Assembly: GCA_025839675.1 (NCBI GenBank)
Contig: CP104013.1
Location: forward strand, 5,760,001 to 5,792,000
Direction of reading: 5' to 3'
Origin: Candidatus Lokiarchaeum ossiferum
Lineage (GTDB): Archaea; Asgardarchaeota; Lokiarchaeia; Sigyniarchaeales; Promethearchaeaceae
Length of the DNA stretch: 32,000 nt
Position numbers and translations under genes: made by a program. Every line of letters starts with the position of its first letter. Position 1 is the stretch's first letter. Positions 780-28,600 of the stretch are shown piece after piece. Below the pieces are notes generated by a model. That model was not told where the DNA came from. It saw only the letters and a program-made list of their open reading frames with translations, and made no database searches.

Positions 780-2051
780 TTGAGCTATTTTAAAAATAGT
801 CTCAAAAAGAAAAACAAATATTTGCTAATATCTAATATTGTTATTATGTCAAAATCTGGAAATTTTGAAAATAAGGATGTAGAAGATTTATTCAATATAT
901 TATGTAGTGAATATTCTCGAATAAATAAAATTATTGAAGACCAACCACCTTGTAGTAATCCTCCTCCAAATTTTGAACAGTTTAAGATTCTCCTGGATCA
1001 TAATGTATTGTTTAAATATGGTCAGTTGGAAGTGATGCAGTTTCATCCAGAGATTTTTCAAATTTTGAAGAAAATATTCCTCGAATTTAATGAGGATTTA
1101 CATGTAGGCTTTTCGCTTGATTATTATGCTTATAAGATTAAAATTGGGTCACTATACAATAAAATTGTTCAAGAGACCTTTATTGTATGGAAATTTTTTT
1201 TTAATCAATTTAAATCTAAATTGCATGAAATAATCAAAGATTGGCGCTCTGATTTTAATGAATTAGAAATGGATATCTCGATTATACTCCCTCTAAAAGG
1301 CTTTTATCTTAATAAAAAGGAAATTACACCTTTCATAATTATATCTGATGACAATTCTACAGCAATTTTTCAAAATATACCCAATTATAGTGTTTACACA
1401 AACAGAATATTGATTGATAGATCATCTCTTAAATTTGGATTGGATGGAATCTCAAACCAATTTTCACCTTATTGTATTCTAATAAAATCTAAAATTCCAT
1501 TCGATGTACTAAAACGAGATGAAAGTGGTAAATTTTTTATGGGAGTAGATCATCCTGAAAATCCGATTAAAATATGGGAACATGTGAAACATTTTGTACA
1601 AGTATTAGCACTTGAAGGAAATCCAATAAAATTTGGAAAACCTTTTTACCACTTTCCATGGTGGATATCTAAAAGAATCATAAATTTGATGAAATTTATG
1701 TATCCTGACTGGATTGACTCACAGTTTTTTATAAATCATGAATATAGCGAGATTGTACCTGATTATTATACATTTAATAATGATATGCATAATTATAATC
1801 GAGATTATATATTTTATTCAATCGAAAATAATCCACGACTCAAAAAGGATATGATTTCTCAATACTCATCTAATATATTAGATCCTACTGAAATTTTTGC
1901 TAATGAGTTATCTAAGAAAATTTCTCAACCATGTGATTTTGATCATATAAAGGAAATCTGGTATTGCTTAACTAATTATAATCAAAATATCAATTTCTCA
2001 AAATCAGAATTTCTACTACACTCTCTCCTTAGAATTGGTTCAAAAACTTAA
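780..2051 (+). CDS. N-terminal portion of an Apea-like HEPN protein; ends at TAA-ATA-TAA and continues in the same frame as 2058..2510
   Basis: 423-codon ORF in track (TTG start; first ATG at 846). Same frame (mod 3 = 0) as the downstream HEPN ORF. The C-terminal end ...SEFLLHSLLRIGSKT runs straight into the first HEPN helix. Confidence 0.6.
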   Translation: MSYFKNSLKKKNKYLLISNIVIMSKSGNFENKDVEDLFNILCSEYSRINKIIEDQPPCSNPPPNFEQFKILLDHNVLFKYGQLEVMQFHPEIFQILKKIFLEFNEDLHVGFSLDYYAYKIKIGSLYNKIVQETFIVWKFFFNQFKSKLHEIIKDWRSDFNELEMDISIILPLKGFYLNKKEITPFIIISDDNSTAIFQNIPNYSVYTNRILIDRSSLKFGLDGISNQFSPYCILIKSKIPFDVLKRDESGKFFMGVDHPENPIKIWEHVKHFVQVLALEGNPIKFGKPFYHFPWWISKRIINLMKFMYPDWIDSQFFINHEYSEIVPDYYTFNNDMHNYNRDYIFYSIENNPRLKKDMISQYSSNILDPTEIFANELSKKISQPCDFDHIKEIWYCLTNYNQNINFSKSEFLLHSLLRIGSKT

Positions 2052-2057
2052 ATATAA

Positions 2058-2510
2058 GATGTTGTACTTCATGTTTGTCTTCTTCTTGAAGGAATGTTTT
2101 TGGCTGGAATTGAAGATGAATTGACTTACCGGCTAAAATTGAATGCGGCTTCATTATTATCATCAAATTTTGAAGAATTTGAAAGTGAAATGGAATTTTT
2201 TGGCTTGCTCTATGGATTGAGAAGTCAAATAATTCATGGTACTCCTAATTGGAAGATCTCCAATAAATCAACAACTAAATATAAAAAATTTATATCTCAC
2301 TTCCAATTAAAGGGTCTTTCTGAATTATACTCACTAGAAAATCCCTATAATATGAGAGTTTTAGAATATAATCTAAAATTGCAACTCTACCAGAAAATGT
2401 GCAAAATTTTAAAATTATTGATTAAAGGTGATATTGATTATAAATGCAGTTTTAAAAATGCGGGATTTTTAAAAGAATTTCTTAAGAAATATAAATCAAT
2501 ATTACGGTAA
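2058..2510 (+). CDS. HEPN domain (Rx4H) portion, probably the C-terminal half of one gene with 780..2051
   Basis: DVVLHVCLLLEGMFLAGIEDELTYRLKLNAASLL...LYGLRSQIIHG, with R at 2220-2222 and H at 2235-2237 giving the Rx4H HEPN motif. The track ATG at 2094 would cut off part of helix 1, which begins at 2058 right after the second TAA. Confidence 0.6.
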   Translation, partial: DVVLHVCLLLEGMFLAGIEDELTYRLKLNAASLLSSNFEEFESEMEFFGLLYGLRSQIIHGTPNWKISNKSTTKYKKFISHFQLKGLSELYSLENPYNMRVLEYNLKLQLYQKMCKILKLLIKGDIDYKCSFKNAGFLKEFLKKYKSILR

Positions 2511-3059: not shown

Positions 3060-4061
3060 TTGAGAAACGTGAATCTAGAAGACAATTCGTTGGTATTGAT
3101 TTTAAAAGAAAAACAAAGTGATTATTATCATTCACTAATAAAGGTTTATCAAAATTCCAAGGAATATCTAATGCAATATATCCGATATCTCCCCGATTTT
3201 ACTGATCATTCTATTATCCATTCAGATAATGTACTGAAGATTATCACCCTAATGCTTGAAAAGAGTGGGCATCTTCAAGAAATCGTTCCTGAAGAAATTT
3301 ATGTTTTATGTTGTGCAACTATTCTTCATGATATTGGTATGGGTGTTCCGGATGAGTTTATAGAGAATCACAAAGAATCTTTACATAATTATAATAATGA
3401 AGATGTTCTCTCAAATCGAAGAACATTTCATCATGTTCTTAGTAAAATGCTAATTCAAGAAGAATGGGAGAAACTAAAAATAATTGATGAAAAATTTGCA
3501 GAAGCGATTGGTTTGGTTGCTCAAGGTCATCGGAAAGTGAATTTAAACAATTTTTACGAGTATAATCCAAGACAAATTGTCTCAAGCGGGGTGAATTATG
3601 TAAATCTTCCATATTTATCTTGGATATTAAGACTTGGTGATGAATTAGATTTAACTAATAATAGATTGAATGAATTGGTGCTATATCATTATCCTCCTCC
3701 AACCTCAATAGGAGAAACGGAAATAAATAAACATAGAGGCACATTCCTGCTCCATTTTGGGGAGAAGTATATTACTATTGAAGCGAAAACTTCCGATCGG
3801 GGAATTTACCATTCTTTAAAGACGCATCATAAAAAAATAGGTCAATTATTAAAAGATTTTCATAAAACAATCACCTCATTTCCTACCCCAAATAATTATT
3901 GCTATGATTTCCCTTATATTTATGTAGAATCGAAAATAGTTCCTCTGAATTTTACTCCTATGGATATTGGGTTTTCTGTGAACAACAATGCTCTTTTTAA
4001 ATATTTCATAAATGCACAAATGTATTCCAAATCAATATTCGCTGTTCGAGAATGCGTTTAA
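3060..4061 (+). CDS. HD-domain phosphohydrolase portion; ends at an in-frame TAA inside the N-box of the following GHKL ATPase domain
   Basis: H...HS..V (TDHSIIHSDNV) and ILHDIGM motifs typical of the HD superfamily. The last residues SIFAVRECV are the start of the Bergerat-fold motif I. Confidence 0.65.
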   Translation: MRNVNLEDNSLVLILKEKQSDYYHSLIKVYQNSKEYLMQYIRYLPDFTDHSIIHSDNVLKIITLMLEKSGHLQEIVPEEIYVLCCATILHDIGMGVPDEFIENHKESLHNYNNEDVLSNRRTFHHVLSKMLIQEEWEKLKIIDEKFAEAIGLVAQGHRKVNLNNFYEYNPRQIVSSGVNYVNLPYLSWILRLGDELDLTNNRLNELVLYHYPPPTSIGETEINKHRGTFLLHFGEKYITIEAKTSDRGIYHSLKTHHKKIGQLLKDFHKTITSFPTPNNYCYDFPYIYVESKIVPLNFTPMDIGFSVNNNALFKYFINAQMYSKSIFAVRECV

Positions 4062-5636
4062 AATGCAATTGAAGCATGTAGAATCCAAAAATTCAATCAA
4101 AATGACCGATATTCGCCAGAAATTACCATTAAGTTAACAGAAAATATTTTAGAAATCTCTGATAATGGCGTTGGAATGGATATTGATGATATTCAAAATG
4201 AATTTGCTTGTTTGGGCGAGAGCCATTTTAGAAGATATAAAATAGCGCATCCGAAGTATCAAAATGGAATCTCATTATTTGGAGTTGGAGTTTTCTCTTA
4301 TTTCATGGTCGCTGATTCCTTCGAAGTAAGGACACGCAAACGAAATGGTAAGTTTTATAAATTTCAAATTTCAAAGGATTTTTTCAATGATTTCTATTTC
4401 TTTAATGAAAACGAAACCGATTTCACTGGAACTTCGATAAAATTTAATTTAAGCAAACATTTTTGTCAGGAATTTTCTAAAATCGAGGATTTTTTAAATT
4501 TTCTAACAAAATATTTTCGCTTAGTTAAAATCCCTATATACTTTGATCTTGAATCAAACCGAAGGAGAATATCTCAACGAAATTTCTTCTTTTACCCTCT
4601 AAAAACAAAATGCATGACAGAAAACAATTCTAAAGTTGCTGAACAATTAATTAAAATGGAAAATATGGTTAGTCTCAAACCATTTACTGCTCCAAATTAT
4701 AAAGGTACCATTTTTTATTCAAAAAAAAACACCCGAAATACTCTTTCATATCCAAAAATTCAATATTTCTTCAAGAATATTTTTATAAAAGAAGTAACCC
4801 TTGAAAACCTTTTATTACCATTTTATTGTATTGGTAAAATTAACATTTATGATGTTAAAGTATTAACTCTAAATCGAAATAATATGTGGGATGCAAAGTT
4901 TGAAACCAAAATTCAGTCGAAAGTTCTTGAAGAAATATTCAAATCGGTTCCTGTAAATCGATATGTTTCATCCAAAAACTTTTGTTCGCAGTTTGTAAAT
5001 CGATCTGATTTTAAACCTTCATTAGTAAAGGTCTATGAACTTAACACAAATGACACGATTTATCTTGAGTTATTGTTTTCCCGAATTATTTTTGATTTAA
5101 AACGAGAACCCATGTCTTTACTCCATTTATTAAAAGAGAGGAAAGCGAACTTCTTTTTCGAAGATGATCAACATGTACATTCCAACAGTTATTCCGATGA
5201 GGAAAGTTTTACACCCCAAATAATTTTGAAAAAAAAACAGATTTCTAAGTATATATTAGTTCTAATTCTGCTAACTTCAAGATTTCAAATGACGAGAGAT
5301 GTGAAAGGTTCGATTGTCCTAAAAATATTACATTTTCCTTCACGGGATACCAAGATGATGATCAATTCTGAAGAAAAATATATTCTTGCAACTAAATTTG
5401 ATGAAAGTGACATTCTTTTTCATTTTGGGAATGGGATTTTGTTTTTAAATACCCATTATGGAGATCGAAGGATGAAAAAAAATATTACGACTATAGCTAC
5501 AAACAAAGGAGCGGTTGCGTATCTTCTAAATAATTTTGATACGCTTGAAAGGGAATACTTTTCAAAATCTCGATACCAGCTCTTTAAATCAGTCGCCGAG
5601 AAAATCAAATCATTTTTTTTGGTTAAAGGCCAATAG
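4062..5636 (+). CDS. GHKL/Bergerat-fold (HATPase_c_3 / sacsin-MORC-like) ATPase portion, same frame as 3060..4061
   Basis: Directly after the TAA the frame reads NAIEAC (rest of the N-box E-x3-N-A-x-D/E-A). Then SDNGVGMD (G1 box) and FGVGVFSYFMVAD (G2 box). The track ORF starts only at the M of GVGMD (4176), in the middle of the ATP-binding domain. TAG stop at 5634. Confidence 0.65.
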   Translation, partial: NAIEACRIQKFNQNDRYSPEITIKLTENILEISDNGVGMDIDDIQNEFACLGESHFRRYKIAHPKYQNGISLFGVGVFSYFMVADSFEVRTRKRNGKFYKFQISKDFFNDFYFFNENETDFTGTSIKFNLSKHFCQEFSKIEDFLNFLTKYFRLVKIPIYFDLESNRRRISQRNFFFYPLKTKCMTENNSKVAEQLIKMENMVSLKPFTAPNYKGTIFYSKKNTRNTLSYPKIQYFFKNIFIKEVTLENLLLPFYCIGKINIYDVKVLTLNRNNMWDAKFETKIQSKVLEEIFKSVPVNRYVSSKNFCSQFVNRSDFKPSLVKVYELNTNDTIYLELLFSRIIFDLKREPMSLLHLLKERKANFFFEDDQHVHSNSYSDEESFTPQIILKKKQISKYILVLILLTSRFQMTRDVKGSIVLKILHFPSRDTKMMINSEEKYILATKFDESDILFHFGNGILFLNTHYGDRRMKKNITTIATNKGAVAYLLNNFDTLEREYFSKSRYQLFKSVAEKIKSFFLVKGQ

Positions 5637-7350: not shown

Positions 7351-7450
7351 ATACTTAGCAATACGTAAACGTGTTCTATTTTGAGAAAAAACATTAGAAG
7401 TTCCCTAAAAATACCATAGTTTACTCTAATTTAAGTTAACCAAAGTTAAA
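7351..7450 (+). repeat. direct repeat copy 1 (~100 bp)
   Basis: Aligns without gaps to 7531-7630 at an offset of exactly 180 nt, 82/100 identical by hand alignment. Conserved core: CGTAAACGTGTTCTA ... AAGTTCCCTAAAAATAC-ATAGTTT-CTCTAAT. Confidence 0.8.
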
Positions 7451-7530: not shown

Positions 7531-7630
7531 ATACTTAAGAAAGCGTAAACGTGTTCTAATTTGGGAAAAGAAAATACAAGTTCCCTAAAAATACAATAGT
7601 TTGCTCTAATCTAAATAAACGAAAGTTTAC
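7531..7630 (+). repeat. direct repeat copy 2 (~100 bp)
   Basis: See copy 1. Both copies are preceded by an AATGC-purine motif. GAGGTATAC occurs at 7526-7534 and again at 7642-7650. Confidence 0.8.
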
Positions 7631-7878: not shown

Positions 7879-7950
7879 GGGCCAGTAGATTAATGGTATA
7901 TCACGTCCCAGTCAAGGATGATATTGTGGGTTCGACACCCACCTGGTCCA
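7879..7950 (+). tRNA. tRNA, anticodon GTC (Asp) by the standard 7-nt loop reading; atypical anticodon loop and Ala-like acceptor features
   Basis: Hand-folded cloverleaf. Acceptor GGGCCAG/CTGGTCC with G3-U70. D arm GATT-AATGGTA-TATC. Anticodon stem CGTCC/GGATG, loop CAGTCAA. Variable loop ATATT. T arm GTGGG-TTCGACA-CCCAC. Discriminator A. No encoded CCA. Confidence 0.75.
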
Positions 7951-8164
7951 CTATTTTCTATTCAATTTTTCATTGAACAATATTACTAAGTATTACAAGA
8001 TATATAATAATTTAGCCTAATAACCATCACTATTTTTAATTCAAAATCCTTTATTTTTTTATTTTGTGGGAAAAATAAAAAACGCTAATGTAGTAATAAT
8101 GAAAAAAAAAGAAGTTAATCTTTGAGAAAATCTGAATCAGGAATCATTTTTTTGCCCACTAAAA

Positions 8165-12727: not shown

Positions 12728-13885
12728 ATGAGTACTGAAAAAACTCCTCCCGTCTTCACTACGATTTTTTGGGATTATGAAAATGTCTCCTTTTCGGGTC
12801 AAAGTCTAAACTTGTTTTTAAGTGGATTAGAAGTAATCAAAAACAAATTAGGGGGAAGTTTTATTCTTAAGTGCTTCAGTCAATGGAATAATATTCCCGA
12901 TGAGACTCAAGTTGCTATTATTAGCGCGGGTTTTGAACTATGTCAAGTCCCTCAAACTCGGAAAAATGCCGTAGACCAAACTATGATGGTCTCAGCAGTC
13001 AACCTTTCGCATCAATTGGAGTTTTCTCGCTTTATTCTCATTTCCTCTGATGGGGATTTTACTGCTCTTTGTCATGATCTTCGCAATAAGCAAATTGGCA
13101 TTTCGATTATTTCCCGCAAGCATTTATCCAATGATCTTCGGGAGGTTACTCAATCAATTTATTTTGTGACTTCCAATGGGATCTTGTTTGAATTTGAAGA
13201 AACCCTCCATGACAAATTAATTGAACTGATTGATTTAGGTGTTCAAGATGCGAATCGGGCGTGTGCAAATCTTTCCCCGGGCCATAAAGAAATTGGAACA
13301 GATAAATCCCTAGAAAATGTTACCATATTTTCTCGAATCGAATGGAAAAAAGCTTATGAGAACTTTCCCCATTGTCAAATTTCGCCGTTTATCTTAAGAC
13401 AGATCTTTAAGATTGATGATTTATACGAAACTTTTTTGCAAGTCTATGGCTATGGAGTCTCAAAGAACTATGATTATTTTTGCTTGCATGAAAGCGGTAA
13501 TAACAAAGAGATTATTGACCTAGATATTTTTGTGGATTTGCCCGAATCCATGGAACTACAAATACCCATCCAGAATTTACCGGCTTCGGAATTAAATGTA
13601 TTCAAGAAAGAAATAAGTCCTAAAAAAAAAGTGCATCCGGAGATCAAATCCCTAAACTTTACTGAGGCAATAAAAAAAGCATTTAAAACGTTTTGTGCGA
13701 AATCTAAAGCCACCAATATCAACATGGCGGTCCTTAATCAGCATACGTGCAATATTTTAGGAATTTCTCCATCTCAACAGGCCTATAAAAAAGCAGGCTT
13801 TTCCACGTTTAAAAAAGCATTGGAATCCATCAAAGGGCAACTCCCAAAGAAGATTAAAATTAAGAAAAATATTGTTTCATGGTAG
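12728..13885 (+). CDS. NYN (LabA-like, PIN-fold) domain protein with C-terminal OST-HTH/LOTUS-like domain
   Basis: N-terminus IFWDYENV and ILISSDGDFTAL match NYN catalytic-site patterns. C-terminus ...LGISPSQQAYKKAGFSTFKKALESI resembles the OST-HTH/LOTUS domain. Confidence 0.75.
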   Translation: MSTEKTPPVFTTIFWDYENVSFSGQSLNLFLSGLEVIKNKLGGSFILKCFSQWNNIPDETQVAIISAGFELCQVPQTRKNAVDQTMMVSAVNLSHQLEFSRFILISSDGDFTALCHDLRNKQIGISIISRKHLSNDLREVTQSIYFVTSNGILFEFEETLHDKLIELIDLGVQDANRACANLSPGHKEIGTDKSLENVTIFSRIEWKKAYENFPHCQISPFILRQIFKIDDLYETFLQVYGYGVSKNYDYFCLHESGNNKEIIDLDIFVDLPESMELQIPIQNLPASELNVFKKEISPKKKVHPEIKSLNFTEAIKKAFKTFCAKSKATNINMAVLNQHTCNILGISPSQQAYKKAGFSTFKKALESIKGQLPKKIKIKKNIVSW

Positions 13886-18090: not shown

Positions 18091-21000
18091 ATGACAGAAT
18101 TCTTGGCTGGTCTTCCCCTTCTCACTCCACCCTTAAAAGATATCTTATTAAATTTAGTAAGTGATGGTATTTATGATGCACTTTCCAAACATTACCCGCA
18201 ATGTGAACCGAAAGACCATAATTTTAATGATCAATTAAATCGCATAATCAAATTGTGCTTTGAAAAAGCGGAGGAAGAATATATGCCAGAATTTAAAAAA
18301 TTCGATAAGACAACGCAAGCATTGATTAAATCCTTCTTCCATAATACAAATGTCATTACATCTCTCATAAATCGGCTGTATTTTTTCCGATATAATCAAC
18401 AAGGTCAAGTAGAAATTCCTTCCGACGTGAAAACCATTTTTGTTCTCCATTTTCAGAAAGTTACCCTTTTAGAGGATAAAAAAGGGGAAGAAATTGGCTT
18501 AAGCATTTATGCCAGCCTAATTAATTTAATCCAAAAAGTCTTGGATGAGATCTACCAATCGAGATTCTTAGGAGATGCGGGAACAATGACGGATCATCGA
18601 ACATTGCTACTGATTGAAGAAATGCGAACTCAATCTCACATCATTCAAAGCAATTTTCAAAAAATTCTTACTGACCGAAAAACAAATATTGAAGCGATTC
18701 TCAAATTTGAAATTGAACTCCGAGATACAATGGCAAACGCAATGAATGATATCTGTATCCATGACATCGATGAAAAAAAAAGATGTGAAATTAAGGACAT
18801 TTTTGTTTCGCCTAAATTTAAAAGTTTTAATCCAGAAAAAGAATTAGAGAGGGAAGAGATATTCAAAGAATCTTTTACTAACAATAACCTTAAATCATCT
18901 ATATTAAAGATGTCTGTAAATATGTCTAATAGATTTAGATCTCTCGATTTGGACATTAATGGTCTGTTAAAGGATTCTTATTATTCCGTAATTTTAGGGG
19001 ATCCTGGTAGCGGAAAATCAACTTTGACAAAGGTCATTACCTATAAAGTTAACAAAAATTATGAAAGCAAATTGATTTTCAATAGACATCTAACTGTTCT
19101 TCCTATCATATTACGCGATTATTCACCAAAAATGGATGAATTGTCTATTTTAAATTATATCGAGAACAAAGCACAGGTAGATTATAGCTTAACTATTCCA
19201 GAAAATGCATTAAATTATCTGGCCCAACAAGGGAGAATTGCAATTATTCTCGACGGATTAGATGAATTAGATTATTCCAAACATCGCAACATAATTATTA
19301 CACGCATTGAAGCATTTATTCAAAAATATCCCTATGTTCCTGTGATTGGGACATCTAGAATCATTGGGTATCAAAATGCGCCTCTAAAAAAGTCTAAATT
19401 TGCTCATTATACAATCGAACCTTTTGATAATAATCAAATTAAAGAGTATATCACTAAATCCTTCGCATTATTAACGAATTCATCAAACTGGAAACAAAAC
19501 ACACCTATTGATGAAATTATTGAGGATTTCATGATACAAAGTCAAACTGTTTCTGATATTCGAAGTAATCCTTTATTACTCGCTTTAATGAGTAAACTAT
19601 TTCTTAATTCAAGATCAATACCTCAATCTCGTCCCGAAATATATGAATCTTGTACTAAAATGTTGCTCAAACAGTGGTATGTTATTAGAAATATAGAAAC
19701 AGAATATACACTAGATGAAATCAATGATTTACTTTCCTTAATTGCATACAATATTTATCAGCATGATGATTACAAACAAGGTATCAAAAAAACGGATATA
19801 ATTAATATATTACAAGAATATTTGCTCGAAATTAAATTTAAATATCCTCCAACGGCAAGAAATTACGCTAATAATTTTATAGAATCTTGTACAGGTAGAT
19901 TATGGGTTCTAACAGATGTAGGGTTATCGGAGTCAAATGAAAAAATTTACAATTTTACGCATAAAACATTCATGGAATATTTTGTTTCCGTCTACATAAA
20001 TGCCACAAAGGAAGGAGGAAGGGAGATTTACAAATTTCTTAAACCTAATATTCTCAATATTGTGGAAAATGAAATATCCCAGCTTACTATTCAAATATTG
20101 GGACGGAATTCACCAACTGGATTTAATTCCTTTTTTGATAGCTTAGTTTCATCGGTGGAAAGAACTAAAGACAATAAGAAGAAAATCACTATGTTAGATT
20201 TTATTCTAACATTCTTACCTATCAAATTTCCAAAATTGACAATCCTTTCCAAAATTTTTAAAGCAACTTTTAAATTAGTGGGTTTAGGCTCTGTTAATTC
20301 TGACATTTTAACTAATGCATTGCATTATCGTCAAAATAAATCTTTACACCTGATCTTTTTACAAAATTTATTTGAGGAACTAGGACCAAGTGGTTTGCTC
20401 TCAATAAACTCTTTTAGGATATATAATATAATTGACCGATTGGTATCATATAGATTTAAAGAACATGAAAATGATGAAATATATCAAATTAATTGTAAGA
20501 TTTTCAGAAAAATACAATTAGAAATATTGAAATTAGATTGTGATGTTGTAGAAAATAGACTCGAAATTATTACGTCTCTCTTAGATAACTCTTACATTTT
20601 ATTTAGGGAAGAGAAAAAATTTGATGATTATCTAGATTATCTAAGAATACCTTCATTTGAATACTACTATGTGCAAAAAGAAAAAATAAGTTTCGCTCTT
20701 TTTCTTAACATCCACCATAAAGCTCAAAATTTCATTTACAGGGGGGTAAAATTTCCATCATATATAGAAGAATTTATCTCACTTTTGACTAAATATCCGA
20801 AAATTTTTTCATCAGAACTATATAGCTTAGGTACAGTTGATCTTTTTTTGCGAGAAAAAATTACAATCTATCTCTCAAAATTACCATCAGTAAGTTTTGG
20901 ATTATTTTTGCTTTTATTTTTCATCTATTTTGATCCTTTGAATAAAACTCACAAAGAGACTTTTATAAGATTTGATAGAATCCAATATAAAAAAAGTGAA

Positions 21001-21162
21001 ATTTTCAATACATTTGATCGTACTATCGAAATATATAAAATGAAAATCTCCACAACAAATCTGCAAGTTCCTAAGTCGTCAAATTTATCTAATGATCAAA
21101 AGGATATGATTCTATCATTGTTCTCAGTCGAGAAGAAAACTGAGAGTGCGAGATATTTATAA
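18091..21162 (+). CDS. NACHT-family STAND NTPase with uncharacterised ~290-aa N-terminal domain and ~450-aa C-terminal helical region
   Basis: Walker A VILGDPGSGKSTLTK (~18990-19030). Walker B IAIILDGLDEL (~19237-19269). Downstream NACHT-typical SNPLLLALMSKLF. 1023 codons. Very AT-rich (hand counts 22-25% GC on two 60-nt lines). Confidence 0.85.
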   Translation: MTEFLAGLPLLTPPLKDILLNLVSDGIYDALSKHYPQCEPKDHNFNDQLNRIIKLCFEKAEEEYMPEFKKFDKTTQALIKSFFHNTNVITSLINRLYFFRYNQQGQVEIPSDVKTIFVLHFQKVTLLEDKKGEEIGLSIYASLINLIQKVLDEIYQSRFLGDAGTMTDHRTLLLIEEMRTQSHIIQSNFQKILTDRKTNIEAILKFEIELRDTMANAMNDICIHDIDEKKRCEIKDIFVSPKFKSFNPEKELEREEIFKESFTNNNLKSSILKMSVNMSNRFRSLDLDINGLLKDSYYSVILGDPGSGKSTLTKVITYKVNKNYESKLIFNRHLTVLPIILRDYSPKMDELSILNYIENKAQVDYSLTIPENALNYLAQQGRIAIILDGLDELDYSKHRNIIITRIEAFIQKYPYVPVIGTSRIIGYQNAPLKKSKFAHYTIEPFDNNQIKEYITKSFALLTNSSNWKQNTPIDEIIEDFMIQSQTVSDIRSNPLLLALMSKLFLNSRSIPQSRPEIYESCTKMLLKQWYVIRNIETEYTLDEINDLLSLIAYNIYQHDDYKQGIKKTDIINILQEYLLEIKFKYPPTARNYANNFIESCTGRLWVLTDVGLSESNEKIYNFTHKTFMEYFVSVYINATKEGGREIYKFLKPNILNIVENEISQLTIQILGRNSPTGFNSFFDSLVSSVERTKDNKKKITMLDFILTFLPIKFPKLTILSKIFKATFKLVGLGSVNSDILTNALHYRQNKSLHLIFLQNLFEELGPSGLLSINSFRIYNIIDRLVSYRFKEHENDEIYQINCKIFRKIQLEILKLDCDVVENRLEIITSLLDNSYILFREEKKFDDYLDYLRIPSFEYYYVQKEKISFALFLNIHHKAQNFIYRGVKFPSYIEEFISLLTKYPKIFSSELYSLGTVDLFLREKITIYLSKLPSVSFGLFLLLFFIYFDPLNKTHKETFIRFDRIQYKKSEIFNTFDRTIEIYKMKISTTNLQVPKSSNLSNDQKDMILSLFSVEKKTESARYL

Positions 21163-21997: not shown

Positions 21998-22673
21998 GCA
22001 AAAGAAGGCTTTGATCCCAAAGAGGAAAAAAAGAGACGAATATGGAAATTGGAAGCGATTCTGTAACGGTTTCATCGGTTTTGATCAAAAGATGGGAAGA
22101 TCAGTTACTGGGAAGAGACGAATGACAAGCTGAAACGGTACTTTCGAGAGTGAATTCTACTGATTGTCGAATAAAATAGAAATATTGTCTGGTGTATCAA
22201 GTATTTCTTCACAGAGGTCTCCGAAAGTACTCGATGCTGACCGTTTTTTTGTGGGAAAAAAAATCAAGCTTACAATAAAAAAATGGAGATCTACCACTCG
22301 TTTTTGTGGGATGAAAAATAAAAAAACACTCGAATGAACATATTTGGGGGAATACAAATTAAGTAATTTTCCCCTTAGACGGAATAACGCAGAATTTTGT
22401 CGAGATTTTCCCCTATCTATGTCAGAACAGAATAACCATTTTCAACGTGATGGACCCGTTTTCATGAAATTATTGCCCACATTTTGCAATAAATATGATC
22501 TCTTATACGATTTGATCGCATCCAGCAAAATTCTTAAATAGATAAAAATCTAACAATAGATCATAAAAATTTAGTCTCCGATAAAAACGAAAGAATGATT
22601 CTTGAAGGTGAATTTTCGATACTAGACCTAATGGACATTCTCCAAAACCCTTTCACTCCCGCTGAAGAAAATT

Positions 22674-25600
22674 TTGGACCCGATCCATTTTTGGTTTTAT
22701 AAAGAATTGGAGGAATTAGATCTTAAGAATCAGGGTCGTTTCTCCTCTGACAAAAAATCTTACGGGGAAAACAACCTTCGGTCGATGATTAAAAACCTCT
22801 GCAAAGTGAACGATATGGTATCTAAAACAACTTGCTCGAAGGGAAATGTCCCCCCATTCTCCCTTAAGGGTCCAGAACCGACCCCCCTCGCCATCAATAC
22901 CCAAGAACATGACCTTACGAAATTTCGATCTTCCCTTCACCTCTTAGGATGTTCCAAGGATCCAGCCTCCTTCTCCTTGGAAGAACTTGTTCAAGCCTAT
23001 AAACTTCCATTAGAACATCCCTATTACAGTAAAAAAACTCGCTTTGTCAACCGGGCTTATCTGCGATCGATCACGCCTCCTCTGTCGGAAAACCGCATTG
23101 ATCGCCTCTTAAAAGTCCCCGTCAAGACTAAACGGGTAGCGAGTCACATTGAATCTGAACCCTATCAGCTCCATTATGACGGTATTGTGGACGAACCTTT
23201 TGATCCGGTTCCGTTTCCAACCCTTTCTTCACCTCCGAAAGATCCACCCAAAAAATCACCCAAACTCCCGCCCGACTTGAAGACCAACCTCCCCTCCAGG
23301 AAAAATGGGCCCTGCTCCTTTTTCTTAACTCTTTTTGCCGTTGTTCCATTAATCACCATTATCTTTCTGTTTCCCCACTTACAAGGGGCATTTCATCATT
23401 CGGTCGGCTACATTGCCTCCCTTGTCCTTGGAACTGCCTATTATGGCACACTCGGGCTCATTGTGTGGAAACCCTACTTTCTGAAACATCAAACCTTTCG
23501 ACACAACCTCTGGAGGCGTATTTGTTCTCCCTTTTTACTTCTCCGAAGGAAGATTCTTAGCACAATACAGACCATAGGGAATATTTTCTCTCCAGCAATG
23601 CGCTATATCGGAGGAAAAATCATCCAAATAAGGACAAATCTGATCCAATGGAGGAAAGTCCAGAGTCACAAGGGGAAAATTTATCTGCAGCAAAAAAAAA
23701 ATTGGATAATCTCCTTACTAAAATCAACTCGAAGCTATGAAAAGGGACTGGTCATCCGAAGGAGATGCCTTCAGAGCAAGTCCCGTATTAACGATCACAT
23801 ATCATCTCTTACATTCCACACCAAAGAAGCCATTACTACGAAATATGTCCATTTCAAATCCCTTTGGCTTCGATTAGAAGCCAAGTCTCAGCTGTGTGAG
23901 GTTTTAGGGGCACAGCTTTGGTTGATCTCCCACATCCTTCGCCTTCCCTATTATCTTGGGAAAGAAGGGGTTTTCCTCGTTCAAGCCATCGGATCAGAAT
24001 TTCACGAGATCCAGTGTAGCATACAGACTTCCTGGAGACGAAAAAAACGACATCATAAAGTCAAACACACTTCTCAGCGCTCTGATGAGAGAACCGCTCC
24101 GAAGTGGATATTATTTTTCCAAAGTCTTTGTGGCCAAACTCTCTACAAGGGATTACAAGTCAGCATGGCAATACTGGCTTTAGGGAGTATGGTCTTGGTT
24201 CTTCTTCAGTTCAAACTGTCGACACCCTTGATCCCCTTCTTGGCTCTTCTCCTAGGGGGAGGCCTCCTTCCAGGATTCTTATTGGGGGACCCAAAGAAAC
24301 ATGAGACCTCGCCCGTAGATGTAAATATCTTTTCTTCAAGCTTAGATGAGGATACAAGTTACCAACCGAAAGTAGTAGAACGAAAGACAAAATGGGATTA
24401 TTACTACGGATTTTTGAAAGCCTTAGAAATCCGCAGGGAAAATATCGCCAGAAATAAACGCAAACAACATCAGACGCCAAAGGCTTCTCCTTCCAAACTA
24501 GCCATTCCTCTAATTCCTAAAAAAAATCCTATATCTTCGTCGTCAGCTCTTTCTTCACCGTTTTCCCGACGAATCATGCCCTTCGTGAGCGTCTTATTTT
24601 TGATTGCTTGTGTGCCTTCCATTACACTCTCGGACCAACAAACAACAACTGTAAACATTTCTCCTATGGCGAATCTCACCATGGAATTGGGCTCTCCCGA
24701 AATGCTTTCATTTGCTGTGGAAACGCATCAGCTCCAATCAGTTTCCTATGCTGTTCTGGTCAATAATGAAATCTTTCAAGAAGGGACCCTTGGACCCTCT
24801 CAAGGGTTGGACTTGCCTCTGAACCATTTACCCGAAGGGAAACATTACATTTCATTACAAATCACTACTCCTCGCCACGAATCAGTGGTAGAAGATTGTT
24901 GGGTAACCGTCGTGAATACTCTCCCCTTTATTGATCCCAGCCCAACACCTGAGCAATTTGAAGATGACAATATGGATGCTACCTTACGCTGGAGGATCAC
25001 AGACCCATCAGTACTCACCCCTGTGTATGACCTGTGCATCTACCACGATAATAAAGTGGTGACCAGCGAAAACGGCAACTTATCCCAATCCCTCACCAAC
25101 CCAGATCAATTCACCTCCCACTATAATATTGCTTCCTTGGGTGTTGGAACCTATCAATACGCCTTTTGTGTGAAGGATGGTTTGGGAGCCCCTATCTGGG
25201 ATAATGGAACCTTTACCATTGTCATGGATCTGGCCCCCGAAGTGACCACCCCTCAATCAATTCTGTACGTTGAACAAGGGGATGTCGTAGAATTAGATTT
25301 CACGATTTCCGATCCCCGACGCACAGGATTTTATGATGTGCGACTGGGTGATCAAGAACTCATTGCAAATACTGCCTATGAAAATTTTGCCCATGTCTCT
25401 CAGGAGATCAATACTTCCTCCATGTCCTGTGATGAGTATCAATATACATTGCAATGCATAGCCACACTTTCCAAACTCAAAACCTATCAGACGATCATCG
25501 TATATGTCATGGACAATTTAAATCCGGAGGTAACCCATACTAATGAATCCATTGCTACAACCGATGGAACTTTTCACACCCTTCGTTTCGAAGTCCACGA

Positions 25601-28600
25601 TTCGCATTTGCTTTCCAACTTCACCTCAAATTTGACGATTAATGGGGAGGGGTATTCCATAAAGGATCTCCAAAATCGCTTTCCGAGTACGAGTGAGATG
25701 AATTCGGAGGCCACCGTTTATCGATTAAATCTGACTCTCCCCGCTCGGTTATTCCACGAAGGTCAAAATGATATTATGTTCCAAGTCACCGATGGTGAAG
25801 GCGGTTCAACGATCCATGATTTTCACCTCTTCCAAAATTCAACCCAAACATTATTGGTAGAAAACTTAGCCACACCAAATTTCTTTAAACAAGCCTTGGA
25901 AAGTACTCCTTTAGAAAATCAACTCTTCCTTCTATTGAGTGGATGTCTTTTCATCTTTGCACTCATGGCGATGTTTTGGTTTCACCATCGCAAAACCGAT
26001 CCAAAAATGACCTCGGTTCAGCGAATTCGGTTTCGATTCATCACCTTATTCTTGGTGGGCCTTAACTTCGGTTTCCCACAATTTATCCAAGCTCAGGCTG
26101 CCCCTAGTCCCCTCAACCCGATTTCGGACTTATCGTTATCCATGATTTACCCAACTATTGAAAATCAAACCAGTTACACCGATCCCTTAACCTTTGGAAT
26201 TTTATTGTATGATTGGTTGACTCTCGAATGGACCTGTGACTATGATGCCTATCAAGTCGTGCAAATTAAAAATCTCACCGATGGGACGGTGATTTATGAA
26301 CATCGCCAATTTCAGGTGGCAGGGGCTCGGTCCCATCAGATAGCCATATCGCCCACCCTCGGATTTTTACCCGATCAAAATTATAGCGTTCAGGTCATCA
26401 CGGAAGATGTGGGATCCCTCTATTCCACTTATGGCTATTCCGAAACTTTTATGCTCAATGTCTTCAAAGCCCACGCTGTTTTTACCTTTGATCAAACCGT
26501 TGATAATCAAGATAAAGGTATTTTTGCGGTGACTCGCCGTCTCAATGAAACCGCCTATTTTCGCTTTGATCTCCATTATAAGACACAGTTGGTGGATGCG
26601 TATAATCCTCGACGATATGTCAGTGCGGAACCGATTATCGTCGAATCCCCGTCAATGACAGGCTATGATCCCGTGACGATTGGTACAACAGGACAATTTG
26701 GGGATCATGAGTTTGTGACCATGCGTACCTCTCTGAATTTTACGGAAGGTGCTCGGTGGACGTTTGAAGGAAATGATTATTATGAGGAAACTCACGCCAG
26801 CGATTACTTGGATGCGCAATCCCTCATTTCTGCCCACGATTATACTCAGCCTGAAGATTTGGCAAATTATACGTCTTCAGGGGACACCTATTCAAATTCC
26901 TCCTCCATCGATACGGTAACGAATTTATATCGCTATTTTTCATGGGAAGCGGGAGAGACGGGCTATAACGGGTTTATTCGGAGCGAGACTAATTCCACGT
27001 ATTATGCCTATGGAGTTAAGGATTCCTCCGATTGTCTCTTTTTTGGATCGACCTCAATGAATCCCCTAGAAACAATGCTTTACAGCCCAAGCATTTATTA
27101 TTATGCTGATGGGGCGAAATCTGCATCCACCAGTATCACTTTTGGCACGAAACAAGATTATAATTCCTTTGCGGATGTCTTTGAAAATTCTAATATTTTT
27201 GATGTGGATATAATCCTTTTTGATGAAGATTTCACAATTTTAGAACAACGATCCTTGTTCGATGGAAATATTGTGGCCATGCAAACAAAGACAATAGACT
27301 TCAACCTTGCCCACTTCACGGTTCCCCGTGCATTTCGGCTTGCCCTTCAAATTCGCATAAATCCCCTCTGGCATAATGCGACTTGGGATGATGCTGATGA
27401 ATTATACTTCTTATTAAGATCCATTTCCTTCGATATTGATTATAATTATGCCCAATGGGGATCATCCAGTTCCCTCGACGATTTTCAATCCATGACTTTG
27501 TTAGAAGAAACTCAACCGATGCAATTTCGGAGGGGAGGATCCCAAGCCATGTTTTATGTGCACTCGGGAGTCGATTCTCAGTTCGCCAATGGCCCGATCA
27601 AAAGTGAAGGAGAATTTATTTTACCTTCCCCTGTGGATTTTACCGATCCATCTTTGGCCGCATCAAACCTAACTTTAACCACAAACTTCGAGTTGGCCCA
27701 TTACGTCGTTGAAGCGAATAATGGTGCGTATAGCTATTCGATCCGAGTAATCCCACAGCTCATAGATCAGACGTACTTGTCATCTATTCCCTTAGCTTCG
27801 GCCAGCAATGTCCAAGATCTTACCACAGTAGTTCAACTTACCACGGATCTCAACGCCTTTAAAGGCCAGCCTATCGATCACTTTCTCCTTCAAGTCTGGT
27901 TCGAAGTACCTGGAGATCCTTTGTCGTCTGATAAATCGGATGAATATCGCAGTTTATTTACTGAAATTACATTGGACGTAAATAATTCCATTATAACCGA
28001 TCTCGTGGAAGGATCCACGACAGGTAACTCGACTATGTATTCGTGGATGGTAGATATTATGCCTGAAATTGGAGATCAACTCTTAGATGTAACCACCTAT
28101 ACGCCCGATAGTATGGGCTATTTCCGCAATTGGATGACTACTGATGTTCCTTTTGCATGCGGCACTGATTGGAATGCTTACCCTACGATTAACGGAAGTC
28201 ATATCGATTGGACCCACGATTATGCCCCCGGTGATTATGTGATTCCCCAAGAAGTTCCGATTGCAGGGTCGAATAATGAATCTCAATGGGTAGAATATAC
28301 ATCAGCAAAAGAATTATTTGAGATTGACAAATATTATGGGGCAGATGATTATCTTTGTTCATACGTTATGATGTATGTCTATTTTCCTCAATATGAACCG
28401 AATGTATATTTGAAAGTGGGCTCGCAAGACGGATCTCGGATAGTTTGGGATGATGGAGAGGTCTGTTACAATCACGTCCAGCGATTTCTCGGGAAAAATT
28501 CCGATGATGAGCAGGATATCATCAATCTTGAAAATGGGGTTACCGCGGGATGGCATCGCCTATTCATTCAAACGGAAGGCTATGATTCCAACTGGTTGCT

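What the first reader, a model, noticed from the sequence alone, without database searches (positions are those of the whole stretch)
2040..2096. TAA-ATA-TAA double stop splitting an Apea-like HEPN protein exactly before helix 1 of the HEPN domain
Track ORFs 780..2051 and 2094..2510 are in the same frame. Across the junction the frame reads ...LLRIGSKT-[TAA]-I-[TAA]-DVVLHVCLLLEGMFLAGIEDELTYRL...LYGLRSQIIHG.

The first HEPN helix (…LLLEG…) begins immediately after the second stop, upstream of the track ATG at 2094, so the 138-aa ORF would lack part of its domain. Both stops are one transition away from CAA (giving Q-I-Q). There are no frameshifts or other stops in 576 codons.
Basis: partly seen in the sequence, partly recalled or inferred. 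Interest (0 to 1): 0.65.

Follow-up and report, generated by a model that had tools for sequence, protein, structure and literature searches.

The report
Stop-codon-broken HEPN defence gene in Lokiarchaeum
An Asgard archaeon carries a gene for a likely RNA-cutting defence protein that two adjacent stop codons have cut in two. The neighbouring gene is broken the same way, so this looks like ordinary recent gene inactivation, not a new mechanism.

Summary
TAA (2049-2051), ATA and TAA (2055-2057) interrupt one reading frame, 846..2510, and that frame has no other defect.

All 12 full-length relatives, from Loki-, Odin- and Hodarchaeal MAGs and sediment metagenomes, are single ORFs of 545-844 aa across this point. 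Stop 2 replaces a Glu that is GAA in all 10 loci where the motif could be read. Stop 1 sits at a variable Q/K/S/H position. The ancestral peptide was therefore probably Q/K-I-E, not Q-I-Q.

The C-terminal domain has an invariant Rx4H motif (RSQIIH) and a predicted helical core. No Pfam, NCBIfam or PADLOC model matches it. The only sub-threshold hits among solved structures are ApeA HEPN defence proteins (E about 0.1).

The downstream ORF (ATG 2094 or TTG 2100) lacks helix 1, including a family-invariant Glu.

The next gene, an HD-CE + GHKL ATPase fusion at 3060..5636, also has one in-frame TAA. It falls at a conserved Gln inside ATPase motif I.

The best reading is recent nonsense inactivation of toxic conflict-system genes in 'Ca. 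Lokiarchaeum ossiferum' B35. A functional split, suppression-dependent expression and base-call error remain minor rivals. Interest is modest.

The parts
846..2048 (+). N-terminal ~400-aa part of the gene (P0001). It has beta-rich and helical regions and conserved aromatic motifs (IILPLKGF, FGKPFYxFPWWISK, PDW). Its fold is unknown.
   Evidence: ORF. Alignment with 12 homologues. AF2 model with pLDDT 62 and no Foldseek match. ATG 846 is taken as the start because the homologue N-termini align there.
2049..2051 (+). In-frame TAA number 1. Homologues have Q (CAA), K (AAA), H, S, L or E at this position.
2052..2054 (+). ATA (Ile) between the stops. It matches the conserved I/L of the homologues.
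2055..2057 (+). In-frame TAA number 2. It replaces a Glu that is invariant in the close family and is GAA in 10 of 10 loci read.
2058..2093 (+). Stranded codons for most of helix 1 (DVVLHVCLLLEG). They include the Glu (2088-2090) that is invariant in 46 diverse domain relatives. There is no in-frame ATG, GTG or TTG in this segment.
   Evidence: Sequence. AF2 helix 2-15. Invariant E34 of alignment A9.
2094..2510 (+). Downstream ORF holding the rest of the HEPN-like domain (138 aa from ATG 2094). A public gene call starts at TTG 2100 (P0020, 136 aa), with GAAGGA ending 6 nt upstream of it.
2220..2237 (+). The Rx4H motif (AGA AGT CAA ATA ATT CAT = RSQIIH), the putative HEPN catalytic motif, at the C-terminal end of predicted helix 3.
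   Evidence: Sequence. R, S and H are invariant in the 46-sequence alignment. It aligns with the catalytic R502..H507 of Ec2ApeA, and paper 10.64898/2026.01.26.701840. AF2 helix 38-60.
3060..5636 (+). Neighbouring gene with the same kind of lesion. It is an HD-CE + GHKL (HATPase_c_3) fusion of ~858 codons with one in-frame TAA at 4059-4061, and it reads AVRECV*NAIEA where homologues read A[IL]RECLQNAID.

Best explanation
The locus is a recently inactivated copy of a single-gene conflict or defence effector. The ancestral protein (~555 aa) joins a ~400-aa N-terminal domain of unknown fold to a C-terminal HEPN-like domain with an Rx4H motif. I infer that it works like ApeA-type abortive-infection RNases, where the N-terminal part senses or regulates and the HEPN dimer cuts RNA. 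In 'Ca. Lokiarchaeum ossiferum' B35, two base substitutions 6 nt apart turned a variable codon (probably CAA or AAA) and the invariant GAA of helix 1 into TAA. These changes most likely arose in one clustered mutational event. Translation therefore stops after residue 401. The remaining 150 codons are not translated, or at most yield a fragment from ATG 2094 or TTG 2100 that lacks helix 1 and so cannot form the HEPN core. The adjacent HD-CE-GHKL gene was knocked out in the same way by CAA-to-TAA inside ATPase motif I. Together they look like a low-GC variable island whose toxic effectors are being silenced by nonsense mutations. Shown: the stops, the single-ORF ancestry, the motif content and the second broken gene. 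Inferred: RNase and defence function, a single mutational event, recency, and that silencing was tolerated or favoured.
For: 1. Twelve intact homologues (545-844 aa) in Promethearchaeota, Odinarchaeota and Hodarchaeota MAGs and in sediment metagenomes are single ORFs with no gap at the junction.
2. Stop 2 replaces a Glu that is GAA in 10 of 10 loci read.
3. No homologue has a stop at this site, so the stops are not conserved.
4. Other family members are broken elsewhere. L005 has one in-frame TAA about 28 codons upstream of the window's first stop, counted on the alignment (..KISDP*VIKDLF..). L018 and L019 have frameshifts.
5. The downstream ORF starts at residue 13 of a helix spanning residues 2-15. 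It lacks the Glu that is invariant in 46 diverse relatives. Every genuine stand-alone homologue includes that helix.
6. No TATA-like box lies at the 18-22 nt distance from ATG 2094 that most clearly boxed genes of this window show.
7. The window copy's ratio of C-terminal to N-terminal identity to its relatives averages 1.32 (range 0.92-1.52). Intact pairs give the same value, 1.32 +/- 0.14, so the downstream part has not decayed further and the lesion is young.
8. The next gene has an in-frame TAA at the conserved Gln of GHKL motif I. About 55 homologues are fused proteins of 846-1030 aa, most of them 870-930 aa. The HATPase Pfam match passes its threshold only when read across the stop.
9. 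TAA is a normal terminator here, and long ORFs of 1023 and >3123 codons contain none.
10. The genome was assembled from nanopore reads and polished four times with Illumina reads (PMC9834061).
Against: 1. If two independent nonsense hits fell at random in 554 codons, they would lie within 2 codons of each other only about 0.7% of the time (my estimate). A clustered event or selection has to be assumed.
2. There are three nonsense changes and no indel in 1,412 codons across two genes. That is somewhat unusual for neutral decay.
3. The part downstream of Met2094 keeps 11 of 14 family-invariant residues, including Rx4H. This is also what continued selection would produce.
4. Helix 1 carries an excess of changes at invariant positions: 6 of 10 against 10 of 52 elsewhere (Fisher p = 0.014, with the segment chosen post hoc). 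That excess fits a segment that has been untranslated for some time while its flanks stayed constrained.
5. There are no read-level, transcript or proteome data here, and no close relative to date the event.
Confidence: 0.6

Rival explanations
1. The gene has become a functional split into two products. The 401-aa N-terminal protein is kept for a function of its own. The C-terminal ORF is expressed separately, either by re-initiation after the tandem stops or from an internal promoter, because TTAAATATAA resembles the TATA boxes of this genome.
For: Both halves are intact, and the downstream half is as conserved as in intact homologues. ATG 2094 sits at a position that is Ile in all 10 close homologues. 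GAAGGA lies 6 nt upstream of TTG 2100, and a public gene call exists for that start (P0020). CTTAAATA at 2047-2054 is identical to the putative box upstream of the NACHT gene. Changes cluster in the stranded helix-1 segment.
Against: The product would lack helix 1 and the family-invariant Glu. No natural homologue starts there: P0148, the only look-alike, is a fragment of a frameshifted gene. Met occurs at this column in an ancestrally continuous relative (LILEAMLLP in L018), so ATG 2094 need not be a new start codon. The TATA-like box lies 39 nt from ATG 2094, against 18-22 nt for most clearly boxed genes of this window. Any AT-only 9-mer looks TATA-like at 27% GC: the 11-mer with one mismatch allowed occurs 7 times against 2.7 expected.
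Confidence: 0.12
2. Expression is gated by the stop codons. The in-frame UAA codons keep toxic effectors silent, and full-length protein is made only when UAA termination is suppressed. Suppression could come from a virus-borne suppressor tRNA, from impaired release factor, or from basal leakiness.
For: There are three in-frame TAAs in two adjacent conflict-type genes, each at a position where homologues have Gln, Lys or Glu. These are the amino acids near-cognate tRNAs would insert at UAA (that point is from my own knowledge of near-cognate decoding). There are no frameshifts, and the downstream domains are intact. A further homologue, L005, also has an in-frame TAA.
Against: The stops are not conserved in any of the 12 homologues, and the one in L005 is at a different site. 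Two stops one codon apart would multiply two already small read-through probabilities. No stimulatory RNA structure is present (z = -1.34). The only tRNA in the window is tRNA-Asp. TAA ends normal genes here. CAA, AAA and GAA are simply the commonest one-step precursors of TAA in an AT-rich genome. I know of no UAA-suppressing system in archaea (own knowledge).
Confidence: 0.05
3. The stops are a base-calling or consensus artefact, or a minority allele fixed by assembly. The real population sequence would then have sense codons at 2049, 2055 and perhaps 4059.
For: The backbone is a flye --nano-raw assembly. Nanopore base calls are known to err systematically at modified bases (own knowledge). 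The likely precursors of stop 1 and of the gene-B stop share TCAAA.
Against: The assembly had four rounds of Pilon polishing with short reads. Three substitution errors would all have to create TAA in frame, with no indel errors in 4.3 kb of AT-rich, homopolymer-rich sequence. Stop 2 needs a G-to-T change in a different sequence context.
Confidence: 0.08

Closest known systems
ApeA (Apea-type HEPN) single-gene abortive-infection defence proteins, e.g. Ec2ApeA (PDB 9hxb; bioRxiv 10.64898/2026.01.26.701840; family defined in PMC3710099)
   Same: Both are single polypeptides of ~550-600 aa with a large N-terminal region and a C-terminal HEPN-type domain. The gene stands alone, with no conserved partner gene in the homologous loci. 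ApeA chains are the only PDB sequences hit by the domain profile. Those hits align the helix-1 motif (IEDxILDxxIALESL against VENQLLNLWIAIESL) and place the family's R..H exactly on the catalytic R502..H507. The motif lies on helix 3, followed by an insertion before helix 4, as described for ApeA.
   Different: The similarity is below significance: E = 0.11-0.18 and hhalign probability 7.7%. No Pfam HEPN_Apea hit was found. Foldseek did not recover ApeA or any other HEPN structure for either domain model. The distance between helix 1 and Rx4H is ~45 residues here, against ~120 in Ec2ApeA. The N-terminal domain is predicted to be beta-rich, while ApeA monomers are described as predominantly helical. 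The close family was found only in Asgard archaeal genomes and in metagenomes. The copy in this window is broken.
Minimal HEPN toxins (HepT of HepT-MntA; Rx4-6H RNases, PMC3710099)
   Same: An Rx4H motif with invariant Arg and His, a helical core, a conserved acidic residue in helix 1, and a setting among toxin-type genes in some loci (PIN and RHH modules next to P0010).
   Different: There is no adjacent MNT-type antitoxin. The domain is fused to a 400-aa N-terminal region. No sequence or fold match to HepT was obtained.
Nonsense-disrupted pseudogenes of defence or toxin genes in variable genomic islands
   Same: In-frame stops at positions that are sense codons in all relatives, a neighbouring gene disrupted in the same way, and other family members disrupted at other sites.
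   Different: Two stops lie only one codon apart, there are no indels, and there is no excess divergence downstream. The event is therefore very young or was a single clustered hit.

Membership tests
HEPN superfamily | Rx4-6H motif with conserved Arg and His | tested here: met
   RSQIIH lies at 2220-2237. R, S and H are invariant in an alignment of 46 diverse relatives.
HEPN superfamily | Four-helix core with the catalytic motif on helix 3, recoverable by fold comparison | tested here: inconclusive
   The AF2 model (pLDDT 78) has helices 2-15, 22-34, 38-60 (motif at 55-60) and 96-123, which is compatible with the topology. Foldseek found no HEPN structure at E < 0.8 in PDB or BFVD.
HEPN superfamily | Significant match to a curated HEPN family model | tested here: not met
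   No Pfam, NCBIfam or PADLOC hit for the read-through protein, for the domain, or for 30 relatives.
HEPN superfamily | Metal-independent RNase activity | not testable with these tools
   This needs biochemistry on a repaired allele (TAA changed to CAA and GAA).
ApeA / HEPN_Apea (PF18739) | Match to the PF18739 model | tested here: inconclusive
   No hit was found. However, the experimentally characterised Ec2ApeA also gets no Pfam hit at E <= 0.01 in this library, so the test does not discriminate.
ApeA / HEPN_Apea (PF18739) | Sequence homology to characterised ApeA proteins | tested here: inconclusive
   The four best PDB sequences for the domain profile are all ApeA, with E = 0.11-0.18. Two motifs align in the same order and the catalytic R/H are aligned. 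The hhalign probability is only 7.7%.
ApeA / HEPN_Apea (PF18739) | Single-gene system with a large N-terminal region plus a C-terminal HEPN domain | tested here: met
   The architecture is seen in 12 homologues. No neighbour gene is shared between the window and the homologous loci (contexts).
ApeA / HEPN_Apea (PF18739) | N-terminal and Mid domains of the ApeA fold, doughnut-shaped oligomer, tRNA anticodon cleavage, dinucleotide activation | tested here: inconclusive
   The N-terminal model has low confidence (pLDDT 62) and no ApeA match. Oligomer state and activity are not testable here.
Nonsense pseudogene | Relatives are uninterrupted at the site, and the stops replace sense codons | tested here: met
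   Twelve of 12 intact homologues read through. GAA is present in 10 of 10 loci read at stop 2.
Nonsense pseudogene | The downstream fragment cannot supply the function on its own | tested here: met
   It lacks helix 1 and the invariant Glu. There is no in-frame start codon in 2058-2093.
Nonsense pseudogene | Stops are real in the reads, and no full-length product is made | not testable with these tools
   This needs the Loki-B35 reads and proteome.
Programmed stop-codon read-through or recoding | The stop codon is conserved at the same site in orthologues | tested here: not met
   None of the 12 homologues has a stop there. The stop in L005 is at a different site.
Programmed stop-codon read-through or recoding | A stimulatory downstream RNA structure, or a dedicated tRNA | tested here: not met
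   Folding 2040-2160 gives z = -1.34. The only tRNA in the window is tRNA-Asp. A genome-wide tRNA set was not available.
Programmed stop-codon read-through or recoding | Code-wide reassignment of TAA | tested here: not met
   TAA ends genes here, and ORFs of 1023 and >3123 codons contain no TAA.

The most novel reading that the evidence does not exclude
The in-frame UAA codons could be functional gates. Two neighbouring toxic effector genes, an HEPN RNase and an HD-CE-GHKL protein, would stay translationally silent. They would be completed only when UAA termination fails, for example when an infecting Asgard virus supplies a suppressor tRNA or disables the release factor. That would be a defence trigger that senses translational recoding. 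The evidence does not exclude it: there are three TAAs at Gln/Lys/Glu positions, no indels, downstream domains as conserved as in intact relatives, and another family member with an in-frame TAA.
Probability: 0.04. Interest if true: 0.85.

Novelty: new member of a known kind. Interest (0 to 1): 0.3.

Why it matters
As a pseudogene it matters little in itself. It does have three practical uses.

- **Annotation.** Two annotation artefacts in the reference genome of a cultured Asgard archaeon are explained. Four called or callable ORFs are really two broken genes.
- **A new family.** The locus exposes an unannotated protein family. About 15 close full-length members occur in Loki-, Odin- and Hodarchaeota. 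About 600 more distant proteins share the domain signature R..ED.ILD..I.LE...ELSYRL...Y.LRS.IVHG. This domain is probably an HEPN RNase remotely related to ApeA and is missed by Pfam, NCBIfam and PADLOC. That is relevant to the inventory of Asgard defence systems.
- **Turnover of defence genes.** Two adjacent effectors silenced only by nonsense changes give a small natural example of how quickly defence genes turn over between closely related Lokiarchaeum strains, which are reported to have distinct defence repertoires (bioRxiv 10.64898/2026.02.13.705702).

Only if the stops proved to be read through conditionally would this become a significant finding.

Tried and rejected
- **Alternative genetic code.** Rejected: all three stop codons end ORFs in the window, and very long ORFs contain no TAA.
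- **Family assignment by HMM.** Pfam, NCBIfam and PADLOC gave nothing for the protein, for its domain, or for 30 relatives.
- **Fold assignment.** Foldseek of the C-terminal model against PDB and BFVD, and of the N-terminal model against PDB, gave no hit better than E of about 0.05. Those weak hits are unrelated helical bundles and the like.
- **Strengthening the ApeA link.** I recovered full-length Ec2ApeA from an E. coli prophage. hhalign gave only 7.7% probability, and Ec2ApeA itself has no Pfam hit. Peptide tblastn against plasmids and phages found nothing.
- **A read-through RNA element.** No significant structure was found. Rfam at gathering thresholds found nothing in the window.
- **An insertion or excision scar at the stops.** Rejected: the alignment with homologues has no gap there.
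- **A repeated motif or gene-conversion donor for TTAAATATAAG.** Only loose AT-rich matches were found.
- **A two-gene system with the HD-CE-GHKL neighbour.** Rejected: no co-occurrence in any homologous locus.
- **Excess substitutions around the stops.** At the 80% conservation level there is no clear clustering. At strictly invariant positions there is a post-hoc excess in helix 1 (p = 0.014), which I report as suggestive only.
- **ATG 2094 as a newly evolved start codon.** Weakened: Met occurs at the same column in a relative whose domain is continuous.
- **P0148 as an independent short HEPN protein.** Rejected after reading its DNA.
- **An alignment with gapped fragments as a collection query.** It failed and was replaced by a two-sequence alignment.
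Full report
**Observation.** The window reads GGT TCA AAA ACT TAA ATA TAA GAT GTT GTA CTT CAT at 2037-2072. Frame 780..2510 has 577 codons with exactly two internal stops, at 2049-2051 and 2055-2057, and no frameshift. The flanking ORFs are 780/846..2051 and 2094..2510. All three stop codons terminate ORFs in the window, and TAA ends this gene and the NACHT gene. One ORF of more than 3123 codons (22632 to the window end) has no in-frame stop, so the standard code applies. On the + strand only two places have long same-frame open stretches separated by one stop or a tight stop cluster: 2049/2055 (425|150 codons) and 4059 (333|524 codons).

**Source.** The product of the upstream ORF sits on a contig of 6,035,313 bp. 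That is exactly the reported size of the closed genome of 'Ca. Lokiarchaeum ossiferum' Loki-B35, which was assembled with flye from nanopore reads and polished with four rounds of Pilon (PMC9834061).

**One gene, not two.**
- A read-through query found P0002, a 559-aa protein that is 31% identical over 93% of the query. It reads ..LLKIGQRDQLEDAILDMSLILES.. where the window reads ..LLRIGSKT*I*DVVLHVCLLLEG.., with no gap.
- Scans of genomes and metagenomes and a profile search added relatives from Promethearchaeota, Odinarchaeota and Hodarchaeota MAGs and from sediment metagenomes.
- tblastn over all the loci fetched up to that point shows 12 uninterrupted single-frame genes. The window matches as one HSP (867-2489, E 1e-76) containing 2 stops.
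- At the DNA level, the residue under stop 2 is GAA (Glu) in all 10 loci where the motif was found. The residue under stop 1 is CAA, AAA, CAC, TCT, CTT or GAG.

**What the protein is.**
- Pfam, NCBIfam and PADLOC give no hit for the read-through protein, its C-terminal domain, or 30 relatives.
- An exhaustive HMMER search found 610 proteins at E <= 0.001. Most share only the C-terminal domain, usually at the C-terminus of 400-490-aa proteins.
- An alignment of 46 diverse members gives the signature R..(E)D.I.D..I.LE...EL.YRL.L..A.LL...F...Y..RS.IVHG. E34, Y75, R78, S79 and H83 are invariant. R78..H83 is an Rx4H motif, which lies at window 2220-2237.
- The AF2 model of the 150 post-stop residues (pLDDT 78) is helical. 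It has helices at 2-15, 22-34 and 38-60, with Rx4H at the end of the third, then an insertion and a long helix at 96-123. This fits the HEPN topology described for ApeA, with the active site on H3 and an insertion between H3 and H4 (bioRxiv 10.64898/2026.01.26.701840). Foldseek nevertheless recovered no HEPN structure.
- The only PDB sequences hit by the domain profile are four ApeA defence proteins, at E = 0.11-0.18. The helix-1 motif aligns with VENQLLNLWIAIESL, and the R..H aligns exactly with the catalytic R502..H507.
- I recovered full-length Ec2ApeA from an E. coli prophage. It has no Pfam hit itself, and hhalign gives only 7.7% probability.
- My conclusion is that this is an HEPN-like domain, ApeA-like at most remotely. 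Membership of PF18739 is not shown.
- The N-terminal ~400 residues have conserved aromatic motifs (FGKPFYxFPWWISK, PDW). The model has low confidence (pLDDT 62) and matches no known fold.
- The gene has no conserved partner. In other genomes it lies among PIN/RHH modules, a reverse transcriptase and a trypsin-like protease. This is compatible with a conflict-system role but does not prove one.

**What the stops do.**
- Stop 2 removes the first conserved residue of helix 1.
- The segment 2058-2093 has no in-frame ATG, GTG or TTG.
- A product starting at ATG 2094, or at TTG 2100 as in a public gene call (P0020), would begin at residue 13 or 15 of a helix that spans residues 2-15. It would lack the Glu of 'LE', which is invariant in 46 relatives.
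- All genuine stand-alone versions of the domain include helix 1.
- P0148 seemed to start at the equivalent of Met2094. It is in fact a fragment called from a frameshifted full-length gene, and helix 1 is encoded in frame just upstream.

**Signals for independent expression are weak.**
- Most genes in the window with a clear TATA-like box (TTTAAATA, TTTTTATA or TTTATATA) have it ending 18-22 nt before the start codon, which suggests leaderless mRNAs.
- The stop cluster itself contains CTTAAATA, but it ends 39 nt before ATG 2094, and nothing TATA-like lies at the usual distance.
- GAAGGA abuts ATG 2094 and lies 6 nt upstream of TTG 2100.
- No RNA structure stands out (z = -1.34).

**Age of the lesion.**
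- The window copy's ratio of C-terminal to N-terminal identity to ten relatives averages 1.32 (range 0.92-1.52). Twenty-nine intact pairs of similar divergence give 1.32 +/- 0.14. The downstream part has therefore not decayed further.
- At positions invariant in ten close homologues, the window deviates at 6 of 10 positions in residues 398-418 (R400K, E404*, I407V, D409H, I413L, I417M), against 10 of 52 elsewhere. The Fisher p-value is 0.014, but the segment was chosen post hoc. At a looser conservation threshold no clustering is evident.
- This local excess fits either a single clustered mutational patch or relaxed constraint on a stranded segment.

**A second broken gene.**
- The HD-CE ORF (3060..4061) ends in TAA, and the same frame stays open through 5636.
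- Across the stop the frame reads ..SIFAVRECV*NAIEACR...ITIKLTENILEISDNGVGMD... These are GHKL ATPase motifs I and II, with the stop inside motif I.
- With the stop read as a sense codon, HATPase_c and HATPase_c_3 match from residue 326-328 across the stop and pass their gathering scores. The downstream part alone falls below them.
- About 55 homologues are fused HD-CE + HATPase_c_3 proteins of 846-1030 aa, most of them 870-930 aa. They read A[IL]RECLQNAID at this point, so the change here was CAA to TAA.
- The only downstream start is the conserved Met of the DxGxGM box, so the ATPase is certainly knocked out unless the stop is read through.

**Other disrupted family members.** L005 has one in-frame TAA at a Lys position, about 28 codons upstream of the window's first stop on the alignment (..KISDP*VIKDLF.., coverage 5.8). 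L018 and L019 carry frameshifts; L019 has coverage 2.6, so an assembly error is possible there.

**Interpretation.**
- The simplest account is recent nonsense inactivation of two neighbouring toxic-effector genes in a low-GC part of the window (27-31% GC for 1-8 kb against 30-44% further on). The island is variable. Lokiarchaeum strains B35 and B36 are reported to have largely different defence repertoires (bioRxiv 10.64898/2026.02.13.705702).
- The close spacing of the two stops (chance about 0.7% for independent hits, my estimate) is best explained by one clustered mutational event. That step is inferred, not shown.
- A functional split is disfavoured by the missing helix 1.
- Programmed or conditional read-through is disfavoured by four points. 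The stops are not conserved. Two stops in tandem multiply two small probabilities. There is no stimulatory element or suppressor tRNA in the window. TAA terminates genes normally here. Read-through is not excluded, and it is the only reading that would make the locus important.
- Base-call error is unlikely after short-read polishing, but it needs the reads to exclude.

**Verdict.** The family label is unproven, and the inferred ancestral residues are partly wrong. The locus is an ordinary young pseudogene of an interesting, unannotated Asgard-centred HEPN-like family. Interest is 0.3.

Noticed in passing
window 3060-5636 (stop at 4059-4061): The neighbouring HD-CE ORF and the 486-aa ORF are one HD-CE + GHKL ATPase gene of ~858 codons. 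It is interrupted by a single in-frame TAA at the conserved Gln of ATPase motif I (AVRECV*NAIEA against RECLQNAID in about 55 fused homologues).
   Followed up: yes
L005 3555-3557; L018 ~900-1100; L019 ~950: Other members of the same protein family are also disrupted. L005 has one in-frame TAA at a Lys position upstream of the HEPN-like domain. L018 has a frameshift between the N-terminal part and the HEPN part, which yielded a misleading 126-aa gene call (P0148). L019 has a frameshift in a T-run in a contig with 2.6x coverage.
   Followed up: partly
window, upstream of starts at 3060, 6278, 8545, 10320, 15246, 18091 and 21856(-): A TATA-like box (TTTAAATA, TTTTTATA or TTTATATA) ends 18-22 nt before the start codon of many genes. 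No Shine-Dalgarno motif is evident, which suggests mostly leaderless mRNAs in this organism.
   Followed up: no
window 7351-7447 and 7531-7627: Two copies of a 97-nt direct repeat, 84% identical and 180 nt apart, lie in the non-coding stretch just upstream of tRNA-Asp (7879-7951). Their function is unknown.
   Followed up: no
window 7879-7951: The Rfam run over the whole window at gathering thresholds reported nothing. The same tRNA scores 53.5 bits (gathering score 29) when only 400 nt are searched. The speed filters therefore dropped a genuine tRNA in the full-window run.
   Followed up: yes
window 22632-32000: A giant open reading frame of more than 3123 codons runs off the window end. Its first 1789 residues have no Pfam hit. 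Its GC content is 41-44%, against 27-31% at the left end of the window.
   Followed up: no
window 12728-13885 and 18091-21162: Further conflict-type genes lie in the same window: a NYN-domain protein and a 1023-aa NACHT NTPase. Both are intact.
   Followed up: no
L014 2605-4356 (E. coli JNQH497 chromosome): Ec2ApeA sits between P2-like prophage baseplate and virion-morphogenesis genes, is annotated only as a hypothetical protein, and gets no Pfam-A hit at E <= 0.01. The Pfam HEPN_Apea model therefore misses an experimentally characterised ApeA.
   Followed up: partly
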